41,434 nt of DNA from a virus (Duplodnaviria; Heunggongvirae; Uroviricota; Caudoviricetes), in the IMG/VR virus record IMGVR_UViG_2534681878_000039. One strand, 5' to 3'. Position numbers: made by a program. Every line of letters begins with the position of its first letter. Positions within the stretch are counted from its first letter, which is position 1. Of this stretch, positions 12,001 through 15,000 are shown piece after piece.

Positions 12001-15000
12001 GCCGATTTTTTACCGGCATCCCCTTTTTTGTGGTGCGTGAACTGCGCCAGCTTATAAGCCGCATCCAGCGCCAGCCTGGGGTCGGTATTAATGTTCTCCA
12101 CCAGAAGACGCCCCATCGCTTTCACCGGATCGGGAAGACCGTCCTCCATATATTCAATACCAGGAGACATCACCGCGGACGGTGGCATCTCCGGATTGTT
12201 TTCGTCCGGCTGTGGTATTGCAGCCGCCTCACGGCGACGGGGTTTATCCTCCTGCTCTGATTTTTTCTGCCGGTAAACAGGAACCTCATCCACCTCCACC
12301 GTCTCGCATTGTTTACGGGCTATAAACGCAAGCACCTCCGGATCTTTTGCCAGCTGCGAGCCTTTAACCCTGGCGGTCTTCGCCGAATAACCAGCGGCAA
12401 TGGCTGACGCTGTTTTGTTTTTCCCGGACATGAGCGCCAGCGCAAATTTTCGTTTTTGCGTTGTCAGCACAGCCTCCTCCCGGGTCCATAACGCACTCAG
12501 CCGGGTATGGTTCAGCCCATTTTTCCCGGCGTCTCATGCCGCAAATGTTAACTGCTGCCTGGTTAACATTTGCTGAAAAAGCCAGTTAACATTTTTTCCG
12601 CACAACAAACTGAATAATAAAGATAAAAACCGAAAAAATGCCCGGGCAGCCAGTTAACATGTTAACTGCCCTGAAACAGGAATTTTTTCTCTGCGTGAGA
12701 GGGGGGGCGGTGTCCGGAGCGATCGTTTTTTTCGCCGGATGATCCCCCCCCCCCGGGGCGGGTCACAGTCCGATGATATCGTCTGCCCTGCCATGACCTC
12801 CGGACACCTCCGGCAGCGTCGGGTCCGGCATACCACCCGCCGCTTCACGAGCAGACTTTTGTCGATGGCATTCGGTACAGAGCGTCCAGAGATTCGTCTC
12901 CTCATTACCACCACCGAACTGAAGTGCAATTCGGTGATCGAGTTCACTGTCACAGAGGTCAACCACACGACCACAGAGACAGCACTGCCCGGCATCCCTG
13001 AGCCAGATATGACGCTTGAGGGAAACACGTGCACTGCCACTGACACGACGCTGTTCACCCTTCAGAATATTCACCCGCCGGGTGTTCAGAGTTTTGATTC
13101 TGCCCGGTAACGTACGAAGCACAGCCATGTAAAATCCTCGCCATATAGCTTGTCACCAGAGGAAAGAAAATGTCATCGAAAAACCGGCCCCGCAGAACAA
13201 CAACCCGCAACATCCGATTTCCAAACCAGATGATTGAACAAATTAACATCGCTCTTGACCAGAAAGGTTCAGAAAATTTTTCTGCGTGGGTCATTGAATC
13301 TTGCCGCCGGGAGCTGGCAGCAGACATAAAATATGCCCGTCAGTTGACTATAAAAAAGAATGATACACAGTATGCTCTGCGATGGCTGTTCATATAACTA
13401 TTTCTTTATATTGCTGAATTTATAAAAACTCACAGACATTAGCTGTATTAATTCCGAATTGAAATAATCAGCCATATAGAATAAAAATAAAGCATAACAA
13501 TAATAATCTTCTACCCAATCAGTACATTACTGCTGTGACTCCAACACGGCAGTTTTTTTATTGAACAGATTCCAGTTTCTTCCACCATCGCACCGGACGG
13601 GCGACCATGAGGGGAGAACGCCGCGCTCCGTTTACGCGGTAAACCCCGGTGTGTATCGTTTTTGATTATCCCCGCACACTCGCGCAGAAGGAATTCCCCG
13701 TCGGGCTACGGTCATGGTTAATGCGGAAATACAGCGACGATACAGCGCATGATGTGTCAGGCTTGAATACCTTTATCCGTTAAAAGGGATATCAGTTAAG
13801 TTATCCCGTGTAGGGTATAAGCCATTATCAAGCCCACCAGTAGATGGGCTTTGTAATGGCTACTTCGCTTTTGCTTCCGCTCGCTTACGCCGGCGCTCTT
13901 CTTTCCTCTCGGCTTTTGCCATGTCCATGAATGCCTGCATGATCGAGTTCCGCATCATGTAGCTAACAAAGTGATGATTGACACAGCCGTTGAGGCGCAG
14001 CTGCTCGCCAAACTCATCCACCGAGGCCAATGCTTCCATCATACCCTTCTCGCCTTTCATGAACTCTGAGAAGTCGCGCCCCGCTCTGGAGGCGCATTCA
14101 ATGACACGATCACTCATCCCGGAAGCCCGGGGATCGAAATCTGCAACTGGTTAGCCAGGGAGTTAATTTCAGCGATCAAACCAGGTTTCGTGTAGCGCCA
14201 TGCCGCGAGGCCTTGTCCACAGAAGCTCGCCATGTCTTTTTTCTGATCAAACTCATGACATTTCATGTTGAGCTGCGCACTTAAGCTGTTCCGATGATGA
14301 AGCTCTCCGGTGAAGTAATCATCGAGGACTTTATAGGCTGCATATTTAAATCCGGGGTTTAGCCATGCTGCGTAATCATAAGCAACGAACTTTCCGCCAT
14401 AAGTTCCACCGTGCGCACCGCGTTCCGTAAAAACCACAGATTCGTGGTTTTTCTCCAGCTCAGCCAAGAACTCTTTGGTCTGCTTGTTTCGCAGGTAGTG
14501 GTACGGAGATTCAGATTCACTTTTACCACTGGCTTTCCACATATCAGTGAGGCAGATCATGCCATCTTCACCGATACGGATTGGTTGATTGAAGAGGGTT
14601 AATGATTTCATAGCGTGTACCTACTCTTTGAAATGAACCTTTGCCGCACAGGAAACCAGCCCACCGAGGCTCGCCAGCACTAACTGGTATCCTCAAAGGC
14701 CCATTCCAAAGGGGCAGGTTCGGTGTAAAAAACATGCGTTGCGGTACGCATTTATTGCAAAAAGCCCCGCATCGCGAGGCTCATTAAATGGACTTTGTGA
14801 TTTGCAAAAAAAATTATTTCAGGCATTGCGTCCTGATGTACTCCTGCAGGTAGTTAACCTGCGCGGTTATCTTGTCGATTCCACCTCGGAGACGGTAATA
14901 ATTGAGTTCAGCATCTGCTGTAAGTCCTGGGCTTTCTCCATCGCCCATGCTGCTGGCTCCGGTCGTTGACTTTGCACAGGTGGCGGAGACTTGCAGGCGC

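What the first reader, a model, noticed from the sequence alone, without database searches (positions are those of the whole stretch)
12471..12762. Candidate cos / terminase recognition region with stacked GTTAAC palindromes and long homopolymer tracts
Between the HNH gene and the small terminase gene lie a 12-bp-arm inverted repeat (12541-12573), an 18-bp perfect palindrome (12651-12668), a recurring CAGTTAACAT motif, and G7 and C11 tracts around GGGCGG-like sequence. Lambda cosN begins GGGCGGCGACCT. This combination looks like small-terminase binding sites plus a nicking site. The homopolymers are also slippage-prone and possible assembly trouble spots.
Basis: partly seen in the sequence, partly recalled or inferred. 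Interest (0 to 1): 0.45.

Follow-up and report, generated by a model that had tools for sequence, protein, structure and literature searches.

The report
Cohesive-end packaging site of Stx phage
This stretch is the phage's cos site, where its terminase cuts and starts packaging the DNA; it is an ordinary HK97-type site, and the cut position has already been published for a nearly identical Shiga-toxin phage.

Summary
All described features are present. The 18-bp palindrome is the only long perfect palindrome in the 41-kb window, and ATGTTAAC occurs five times in 124 bp.

The region lies between an HNH gene and terS/terL on the minus strand. It is 97-99% identical to about 93 long-tailed Stx-converting phages (BP-4795, 2851, 1717).

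For one of these, Lys8385Vzw, PhageTerm reported 3' cohesive ends CGCCCCCCCT (PMC7946995). Its GenBank record ends and starts exactly there. That places the staggered cut at window 12700-12709, the G7 tract. It is a 10-nt 3' overhang as in HK97, not lambda's 12-nt 5' overhang.

The C11 tract reads as a G tract on the coding strand. It ends 43-45 bp upstream of the cut in every enterobacterial relative fetched and in HK97/HK022. SfI and D3 carry an interrupted G-rich block 40-41 bp upstream. Its length varies from 7 to 12 among near-identical phages.

The five ATGTTAAC sites are most likely TerS binding sites (cosB). In relatives with a different TerS recognition helix, every site seen switches together to ATGTTTAY. 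Phage satellites keep the cut-site core but carry other repeats.

The kind of site is known, so interest is low to moderate.

The parts
12763..13128 (-). HNH endonuclease gene, last gene before cos. It is the counterpart of HK97 gp74.
   Evidence: PF01844 E 7e-7. Same position as the HNH genes of HK97, SfI and D3. Similarity to gp74 itself is only marginal.
12744..12754 (-). Upstream G tract (G11 on the coding strand, C11 on the + strand), at -55..-45 from the cut. Its position is conserved and its length is hypervariable.
   Evidence: A G6-G12 run ends 43-45 nt before the inferred cut in all 23 aligned enterobacterial phage and satellite loci. HK97 and HK022 have G9 + 43 nt; SfI and D3 have an interrupted G-rich block 41 and 40 nt upstream. 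Length is 7, 7, 7, 9, 10, 11, 11, 12 in near-identical Stx phages. The function is inferred.
12678..12715 (-). Conserved cos core, GGACACCGCCCCCCCT|CTCACGCAGAGAAAAAATTCC (-16..+22), including an A6TT tract at +12..+19.
   Evidence: Highest information content of the alignment of 23 loci: 1.5-1.7 bits per column, against 0.7 further upstream. The TerS proteins of these loci are only 33-49% identical. The D3 record ends ...GGACACCGCGCCCCCA.
12700..12709 (-). cosN: the 10-nt 3' cohesive end CGCCCCCCCT (AGGGGGGGCG on the + strand, containing the G7 tract). The top-strand nick lies between 12700 and 12699, the bottom-strand nick between 12710 and 12709.
   Evidence: Identical to the cohesive end published for Lys8385Vzw (PMC7946995) and to the termini of record MT225100. 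Inferred for this window by about 97% identity.
12651..12668 (-). Dyad of two ATGTTAAC sites (CAGTTAACAT|ATGTTAACTG), +32..+49 from the cut. Proposed proximal TerS binding site.
   Evidence: The dyad centre is at +40/+41 in every phage relative, where it overlaps the terS ATG. Here terS starts 190 nt further on, yet the dyad kept its distance from the cut. It switches to ATAAACATGTTTAY in class-B TerS loci.
12596..12650 (-). AT-rich spacer with T tracts spaced about 8-10 nt apart. Possibly an intrinsically bent segment between the proximal and distal sites.
   Evidence: 70-80% A+T. No IHF consensus within one mismatch. The bending is inferred only.
12541..12594 (-). Three distal ATGTTAAC sites (12583-12592, 12562-12571, 12545-12554). 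The last two form the 12-nt-arm inverted repeat. Proposed distal TerS binding sites (cosB).
   Evidence: Conserved in all 8 Stx phages examined. All change in concert to ATGTTTAY / GTAAACAT in loci whose TerS recognition helix reads KSARC instead of KTARV.
11907..12470 (-). terS (Terminase_2 family) with an N-terminal helix-turn-helix. GTG start at +230 from the cut.
   Evidence: PF03592. The N-terminal domain matches the solved DNA-binding domain of an SF6-type small terminase: 4zc3, 3zqp, 2cmp, E 4e-4 to 1e-3.
10249..11910 (-). terL, a distant homologue of the HK97 and D3 large terminases.
   Evidence: PF03354 + PF20441. 23% identity to HK97 gp2, E 1e-11. 21% identity to D3 orf2, E 1e-12.

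Best explanation
The region is the cos site of a long-tailed, HK97-type Stx-converting prophage. Positions below are given along the minus strand (HNH -> terS), with +1 = window 12699.

**Elements, in order**
1. A G tract at -55..-45 (window 12754-12744).
2. A conserved core, GGACACCGCCCCCCCT|CTCACGCAGAGAAAAAATTCC.
3. Staggered nicks that flank CGCCCCCCCT (window 12709-12700) and leave 10-nt 3' cohesive ends.
4. A cosB-like array of five ATGTTAAC sites: a dyad at +32..+49 and three more at +108..+155, separated by an AT-rich spacer.
5. terS, starting at +230.

**Proposed mechanism**
- On concatemeric DNA, the TerS oligomer binds the ATGTTAAC sites through its N-terminal helix-turn-helix.
- TerS positions TerL, and TerL together with the HNH protein makes the two nicks.
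- DNA is then packaged from +1 toward terS and the head genes (toward lower window coordinates) until the next cos.
- The G tract lies on the last-packaged side. It is probably read by the conserved TerL/HNH part of the machine, possibly for termination in the way cosQ is.

**Shown:** the position and conservation of all elements, identity to published termini, and covariation of the repeats with the TerS helix-turn-helix.

**Inferred:** physical binding by TerS, which protein cuts which strand, and the role of the G tract.
For: 1. **Gene context.** HNH, intergenic region, terS, terL.
2. **Close relatives.** The region is 97-99% identical to 93 Stx-converting phage records.
3. **Mapped termini.** PhageTerm mapped the termini of Lys8385Vzw: 3' cohesive ends, CGCCCCCCCT (PMC7946995). 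Record MT225100 ends with that sequence and starts at CTCACGCAG. This aligns to window 12709-12700 and 12699 onward.
4. **Agreement with other phages.** The D3 record ends ...GGACACCGCGCCCCCA at the same alignment column. HK97, HK022 and SfI records also end in a C-rich stretch preceded 40-43 nt upstream by a G-rich tract. A 10-nt 3' overhang is documented for HK97 (PMC9410871) and for SfI (PMC3636060).
5. **Conservation.** In 23 loci from 10+ enterobacterial genera, the core at -16..+22 is nearly invariant although TerS is only 33-49% identical. The distance from the G tract to the cut is 43-45 nt in all.
6. **Dyad tracks the cut.** The dyad stays at +40/+41 from the cut whether terS starts there (distant relatives) or 190 nt later (this lineage). 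It is therefore tied to cos, not to translation initiation.
7. **Covariation.** Four loci with TerS helix ..KTARVKG.. carry 4-6 GTTAACAT sites. Three loci with ..KSARCKG.. carry only [AG]TAAACAT sites, at the same positions. Satellites with ..KTARVKGWQ.. carry AAGTTACAC repeats behind the same cut-site core.
8. **DNA-binding fold.** The TerS N-terminus matches a solved small-terminase DNA-binding domain.
9. **HNH role.** HNH gp74 stimulates cos cleavage by TerL in HK97 (PMC9410871 and PMC11331095).
Against: - No virion DNA of this particular prophage was examined. The cut position rests on one PhageTerm analysis of a relative, and that paper prints garbled coordinates ('50,977-50,953').
- The GenBank note for the related phage phi330 mentions a 'circularly permutated genome' alongside cohesive ends, and that record starts inside terS. 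It gives no independent support.
- TerS here belongs to a different family from HK97 gp1, so the HK97 TerS site (+15..+29) cannot simply be transferred.
- The covarying loci are related, and cosB is physically linked to the 5' end of terS, so part of the covariation could reflect co-inheritance. The same base change at every one of the sites visible argues against that.
- No IHF site was found.
- The distal three sites are absent in distant relatives, so they are not strictly required by the family.
Confidence: 0.85

Rival explanations
1. It is a cos site and the cut is as stated, but the GTTAAC repeats are not TerS sites. They would be non-functional relics of duplications of the ancestral terS 5' end (ATG TTA AC = Met-Leu-Thr), or sites for another protein such as a host nucleoid protein or a late-gene regulator.
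For: In distant relatives the dyad overlaps the terS start codon, ATGTTAACAGCG = MLTA. The motif could therefore have arisen from coding sequence. ATGTTAACTGGCT occurs twice, which is consistent with duplication. No binding data exist.
Against: - The non-coding half of the dyad is conserved too.
- The true terS start in this lineage (GTGCTGACA) has lost the motif, while the dyad kept its distance from the cut.
- In each class-B locus every site seen carries the same base change, and this goes with changes in the TerS recognition helix. Neutral relics would not change in concert.
Confidence: 0.1
2. It is a lambda-type cosN: a 12-nt 5' overhang cut at the GGGCGG-like sequence, with IHF-assisted cosB.
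For: GGGCGG occurs on the + strand at 12705-12710. The overall layout (upstream element, cut, repeats, terS) resembles cosQ-cosN-cosB.
Against: - The published ends of the near-identical phage are 3' and 10 nt long.
- TerL hits PF03354/PF20441 and aligns with HK97 and D3 TerL, not with a lambda gpA-type family.
- An HNH gene is present, as in the HK97-type HNH-dependent cos system.
- The G-rich strand is the complement of the strand that carries terS, which is the opposite of lambda.
- There is no IHF consensus.
Confidence: 0.02
3. The region is mainly a transcription or RNA element, and packaging starts elsewhere or by headful. Candidates are a terminator or attenuator between the lysis/HNH genes and the head genes, or a structured RNA formed by the G11...C7 complement and the palindromes.
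For: One weak terminator-like hairpin at 12645-12630 on the minus strand. G11 and C7 can pair.
Against: - The terminator count is not above shuffles: 1 found, 1.1 expected.
- The G-tract/C-tract fold has a z-score of only -1.1.
- No Rfam family comes near its gathering score.
- Mapped termini lie here.
Confidence: 0.03

Closest known systems
cos site of Stx1-converting phage Lys8385Vzw (MT225100; Zhang et al. 2021, PMC7946995)
   Same: Essentially the same sequence. The overhang CGCCCCCCCT is identical, as are the core and all five ATGTTAAC sites. The HNH-cos-terS-terL context is the same.
   Different: The G tract is 7 there and 11 here, with a few point differences in the spacer. The paper reports only the cohesive end, not the repeats or the G tract.
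HK97 cos with gp1 (TerS), gp2 (TerL) and gp74 (HNH)
   Same: HNH is the last gene before cos and terS/terL come first after it. The overhang is 10 nt, 3' and C-rich. A G9 tract ends 43 nt upstream of the cut. An A/T tract lies just downstream of the cut. TerL is homologous.
   Different: TerS belongs to an unrelated family. HK97 TerS reads a single 15-bp site at +15..+29 through its central tunnel (PMC11331095). Here a helix-turn-helix TerS is paired with five repeated 8-mers spread over +32..+155.
Pseudomonas phage D3 cos
   Same: The record ends ...GGACACCGCGCCCCCA. This matches the family consensus GGACACCGCGCCCCCT except at the last base, and differs from this window's core at one further position. 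A G-rich tract lies 40 nt upstream and an HNH gene directly before it.
   Different: Sequence downstream of the cut and TerS are unrelated. TerL is only 21% identical. From memory, not checked here, the overhang was reported as 9 nt.
Lambda cos (cosQ-cosN-cosB, gpNu1 R sites, IHF site I1)
   Same: Functional layout: an upstream element, a staggered cut, then repeated small-terminase sites separated by an AT-rich or bent segment before the small terminase gene.
   Different: Lambda has a 12-nt 5' overhang, no HNH partner, a different TerL family and an IHF site (none found here). The G-rich strand is on the opposite strand.
PICI / SaPI satellites that carry a helper-type cosN with their own cosB or TerS (for example EcCICFT073, PMC6092414)
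   Same: E. coli islands L102 and L103 carry the same G tract + GGACACCGC.CCCC.T|CTCAT core as this phage, but different downstream repeats and a TerS with a different N-terminal domain.
   Different: These are satellites, not the phage. Helper dependence was not tested.

Membership tests
HK97-type, HNH-associated 3'-cos packaging site | Lies between an HNH endonuclease gene and terS-terL | tested here: met
   Pfam HNH, Terminase_2, TerL_ATPase + TerL_nuclease, in that order on the minus strand.
HK97-type, HNH-associated 3'-cos packaging site | TerL homologous to HK97 gp2 | tested here: met
   BLASTP 23% identity over 490 aa, E 1e-11. Also D3 TerL, E 1e-12.
HK97-type, HNH-associated 3'-cos packaging site | Virion DNA has defined ends with a roughly 10-nt 3' overhang at this site | not testable with these tools
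   No virion DNA or reads exist for this prophage. By proxy, the identical 10-mer is the published 3' cohesive end of Lys8385Vzw, and that record's termini align to window 12700/12699.
HK97-type, HNH-associated 3'-cos packaging site | C-rich overhang preceded by a G-rich tract about 40-45 bp upstream | tested here: met
   G11 ends 44 nt before the cut here. The distance is 43-45 nt in 22 relatives, 43 in HK97 and HK022, 41 in SfI and 40 in D3. That this feature defines the family is my own generalisation from these five lineages, not a published criterion.
HK97-type, HNH-associated 3'-cos packaging site | The TerS recognition site lies on the terS side of the cut | tested here: inconclusive
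   Repeats at +32..+155 covary with the TerS helix-turn-helix in 7 of 7 loci. There is no binding assay. TerS is not of the HK97 gp1 family.
HK97-type, HNH-associated 3'-cos packaging site | The HNH protein is required for, or stimulates, cos cleavage | not testable with these tools
   Shown for HK97 gp74 (cited in PMC9410871 and PMC11331095). The HNH here has only marginal pairwise similarity to gp74, E 0.11.
Lambda-type cos | 12-nt 5' overhang, GGGCGGCGACCT-like, on the strand that carries the terminase genes | tested here: not met
   The published ends of the near-identical phage are 3' and 10 nt. The G-rich strand is the complement of the terS strand.
Lambda-type cos | IHF site between small-terminase binding repeats | tested here: not met
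   No match to WATCAANNNNTTR within one mismatch anywhere in 12471-12762.
Lambda-type cos | gpA-type large terminase | tested here: not met
   TerL hits PF03354/PF20441 only, and no GpA family was reported at E <= 1e-3. Direct comparison with lambda gpA was not run.

The most novel reading that the evidence does not exclude
The region may record a modular packaging-specificity system. A universal 'cut module' (G tract at about -45 plus the GGACACCGC.CCCCC core) would be read by TerL/HNH and shared across phages of many enterobacterial genera, by Pseudomonas phage D3, and by E. coli satellites. It would be coupled to exchangeable 'address modules': repeat arrays together with the TerS helix-turn-helix domain. 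At least three alleles are seen: GTTAACAT with KTARV, RTAAACAT with KSARC, and AAGTTACAC with KTARVKGW. Phages and satellites would use these to keep packaging private while sharing the motor. The positionally fixed, length-hypervariable G tract would then be a so-far undescribed essential element of HNH-dependent cos sites, for example the docking or termination signal for HNH/TerL.
Probability: 0.35. Interest if true: 0.5.

Novelty: already known. Interest (0 to 1): 0.25.

Why it matters
- **Genome ends.** It fixes where the genomes of this large group of long-tailed Shiga-toxin phages (BP-4795, 2851 and 1717 types) begin and end. This helps annotation, prophage delimitation and the design of transduction or cosmid-like assays.
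- **Assembly caution.** The 7-12 G/C run and the C7 run sit inside a functional site. Length calls there should be treated with care in assemblies.
- **Testable recognition pairs.** The concerted motif switches offer a ready-made natural experiment on how helix-turn-helix small terminases of the Terminase_2 family read DNA.
- **Candidate satellites.** The shared cut-site core identifies E. coli satellites that could be mobilised by Stx phages.
- **Overall.** None of this changes the current picture of cos packaging.

Tried and rejected
- **IHF site in the AT-rich spacer.** No match to WATCAANNNNTTR within one mismatch.
- **Cruciform or hairpin between G11 and C7.** The fold is not better than shuffles, z = -1.1.
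- **Terminator or promoter scan.** One weak terminator-like hairpin and one promoter-like match inside the repeats, neither clearly above background.
- **Rfam.** Only chance-level hits, far below gathering scores.
- **Record ends of the closest non-Stx TerL relatives.** Pseudomonas BR143a and Burkholderia E354 are simply started at terS and say nothing about termini.
- **phi330 record.** It starts inside terS and its note is ambiguous.
- **First genome-contig scan.** With TerS alone it found nothing. The alignment-based scan worked.
- **BLAST of a relative's cos core against phage records.** It found no further record that begins or ends at the site.
- **Small ORF starting at the dyad ATG.** It would encode MLTGCPGIFSVFIFIIQFVVRKKC (24 aa, 12662-12588 on the minus strand). 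It is probably not a gene: the corresponding ORF in L091 is 14 aa with a different sequence, and its hydrophobicity follows from the T-rich spacer (my reading of the sequences).
- **Kala et al. 2014.** The paper on HNH proteins in packaging could not be read. It is cited only through papers that quote it.
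Full report
**1. Observation**

- Inverted repeat GCAAATGTTAAC / GTTAACATTTGC at 12541-12552 and 12562-12573.
- Perfect 18-bp palindrome CAGTTAACATGTTAACTG at 12651-12668.
- Four exact copies of CAGTTAACAT, and five of the 8-mer ATGTTAAC, between 12545 and 12668.
- G7 at 12701-12707 and C11 at 12744-12754.

None of this is chance.
- The palindrome is the only perfect palindrome with arms >=7 in the 41-kb window.
- CAGTTAACAT occurs only once elsewhere in the window.
- GTTAAC is over-represented: 16 matches against 6.7 expected, and none of 100 shuffles reached 16.
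- Only 1 of 811 other 292-nt segments has any 8-mer five times.
- The two homopolymers are two of the three G/C runs >=7 in the window.

**2. Context**

All genes here are on the minus strand: HNH endonuclease (12763-13128), the 292-nt gap, TerS of the Terminase_2 family (11907-12470), TerL (10249-11910), then a prohead protease-major capsid fusion and the portal. Lysis genes lie upstream of HNH (BP-4795 annotation).

The region is 97-99% identical to 93 records of long-tailed Stx-converting phages and prophages, including BP-4795, 2851, 1717 and YYZ-2008. TerL is 100% identical to that of Stx1a phage Stx1_EH1995.

**3. Where the cut is**

Zhang et al. 2021 (PMC7946995) induced Stx1 phage Lys8385Vzw, sequenced particles and ran PhageTerm. 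They report a cos phage with 3' cohesive ends and cohesive sequence CGCCCCCCCT.
- Their record MT225100 ends ...GCTCCGGACACCGCCCCCCCT and begins CTCACGCAGAGAAAAAATTCC..., followed by terS.
- The window's minus strand has exactly this sequence.
I number the next base, 12699, as +1.

Independent support comes from phages whose GenBank records are laid out from end to end.
- D3 ends ...GGACACCGCGCCCCCA.
- HK97 and HK022 end ...GACCGCCGCCAAA.
- SfI ends ...GGACTGCCCGCCCC, and its 10-nt cohesive end TGCCCGCCCC was found by direct sequencing of virion ends (PMC3636060).
- HK97 has 10-nt 3' overhangs (PMC9410871).

All of these align with the same column as the inferred cut here. The site is thus HK97/D3-type, not lambda-type.

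**4. Comparative anatomy**

Using an alignment of TerS homologues, I fetched 20 full-length loci from Kluyvera, Phytobacter, Serratia, Atlantibacter, Kosakonia, Rouxiella, Enterobacter, Citrobacter, Erwinia, Pantoea, Buttiauxella and others. Their TerS is 33-49% identical. I also fetched closer E. coli relatives and two satellite types. The loci that include the upstream region share this layout:
- an HNH gene;
- a G6-G12 tract;
- 43-45 nt of spacer;
- GGACACCGCGCCCCCT|CTCACGCACAGAAAAAATTCC.

The core at -16..+22 is nearly invariant (1.5-1.7 bits per column) although the proteins have diverged strongly. The 3' edge of the G tract sits at a nearly fixed distance from the cut, and the tract's length varies. 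HK97 and HK022 have a G9 tract 43 nt upstream. SfI and D3 have G-rich blocks 41 and 40 nt upstream. It is not part of the nick. Among near-identical Stx phages its length is 7, 7, 7, 9, 10, 11, 11 and 12, which bears out the slippage and assembly warning.

**5. The GTTAAC repeats**

In the distant relatives, a dyad GT(A/T)AAC-AT-GTTAAC is centred at +40/+41 and overlaps the terS start codon (ATG TTA ACA = MLT). In the Stx-phage lineage the dyad is at exactly the same distance from the cut (12651-12668). However, terS starts 190 nt further on with GTG CTG ACA, which has lost the motif. The extra DNA carries an AT-rich tract and three more ATGTTAAC copies. The dyad therefore follows cos, not translation initiation.

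Close relatives fall into two classes by TerS recognition helix.
- Class A reads ..SAKTARVKGSQ..: the window, P0009, P0016 and P0034. All four class-A loci carry 4-6 GTTAACAT-type sites.
- Class B reads ..SEKSARCKGSQ..: P0024, P0006 and P0033. All three class-B loci carry [AG]TAAACAT / ATGTTTAY at the same positions and no GTTAACAT at all. One of the three (L112) is a truncated contig that shows only two sites.

P0006 is otherwise 88% identical to the window's TerS. The unit that is exchanged is therefore cosB plus the N-terminal domain.

Two kinds of E. coli satellite-like islands were also examined.
- L102: integrase, primase/helicase, cos-like site, TerS, capsid-like gene, lying between yejM and narP.
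- L103: AlpA, cos-like site, TerS.

Both keep the G tract and the cut-site core, but behind it they carry AAGTTACAC repeats, and their TerS has yet another N-terminal domain.

The TerS N-terminus matches the solved DNA-binding domain of an SF6-type small terminase. Together these results make TerS binding to the repeats (a cosB) the best explanation. Binding itself is not shown.

**6. Mechanism**

TerS bound at the dyad and the distal sites recruits TerL. TerL and the HNH protein nick both strands 10 nt apart at 12700-12709. Packaging runs toward terS. The conserved core and the G tract are read by the conserved part of the machine.

The division of labour between TerL and HNH is open even for HK97 (PMC11331095). 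The role of the G tract is my inference. A cosQ-like termination signal or a docking site for HNH/TerL are the obvious candidates.

**7. Rejected alternatives**

- Lambda-type cosN: wrong polarity, wrong TerL family, and an HNH gene is present, as in the HK97-type HNH-dependent cos system.
- IHF-assisted cosB: no consensus site.
- RNA or hairpin element: folds and Rfam hits are at chance level.
- Non-functional duplication relics: contradicted by the concerted motif changes.

**8. Novelty and verdict**

The cos end of this phage group is published (PMC7946995), and the HNH-terS-terL 3'-cos arrangement is textbook HK97 biology. The finding is correct but already known in kind.

This analysis adds three incremental points:
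- the five-site cosB array and its covariation with the TerS helix-turn-helix;
- the positionally fixed, length-variable G tract shared with HK97 and HK022, with an interrupted G-rich counterpart in SfI and D3;
- satellites that share the cut-site core.

Confidence that this is the cos site with the cut at 12700-12709 is about 0.85. Confidence that the repeats are TerS sites is about 0.7. The role of the G tract remains open.

Noticed in passing
L097 (LC567826.1, PPompW_699) 1146-2604; equivalent to window ~12744-12754: In the PPompW prophages an IS110-family element, ISEc20, sits inside the cos G tract (...tttcGGGGGGG|IS|GGGGGatcatcc...). The HNH and lysis genes that should lie upstream are missing. 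The G tract may be a preferred ISEc20 target, and these prophages are probably packaging-defective.
   Followed up: partly
L102 (AATOBA010000003.1, ~3400-12000) and L103/L095: These are E. coli satellite-like islands. One has integrase, AAA_25 primase/helicase, small ORFs, TerS and a capsid-like gene between yejM and narP/ccm. The other has AlpA and TerS. Both carry the same G tract + GGACACCGC.CCCC.T|CTCAT core as this phage, but with AAGTTACAC repeats and a TerS whose C-terminal half resembles the phage TerS. They are candidate satellites of BP-4795/2851-type Stx phages.
   Followed up: partly
window 12588-12662 (- strand): The dyad ATG, which is the ancestral terS start position, opens a 24-codon ORF (MLTGCPGIFSVFIFIIQFVVRKKC) that ends in the TAA of the next ATGTTAAC site. 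It is probably a relic rather than a gene, because the equivalent ORF in L091 is 14 aa and different.
   Followed up: partly
window 12744-12754 and relatives: The G/C homopolymer length is 7, 7, 7, 9, 10, 11, 11 and 12 in otherwise 97-99% identical Stx phages. The overhang itself has three variants: CGCCCCCCCT, CGCCCCCCGT and CGCGCCCCCT. Whether the length differences are biological slippage or sequencing error is unknown.
   Followed up: partly
window 6672-10185 (- strand): The head-gene order is unusual. terL is followed directly by a prohead-protease/major-capsid fusion (645 aa, Peptidase_S78 + Phage_capsid). The portal gene (6672-8036) comes after it instead of directly after terL.
   Followed up: partly
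window 13170-13397 (+ strand): A small DUF3950 gene on the opposite strand lies just upstream of the HNH gene. It is conserved in BP-4795 (ORF52). Its function is unknown.
   Followed up: no
L012-L030, about -38..-31 from the inferred cut: Many distant relatives carry an extra GT(A/C/T)AAC(A/G)T copy upstream of the cut (for example ggaGGTAAACATCGAccgc), so motif copies flank the nick. In the window this position reads GAAAAAAACGATCGC and has no motif.
   Followed up: no
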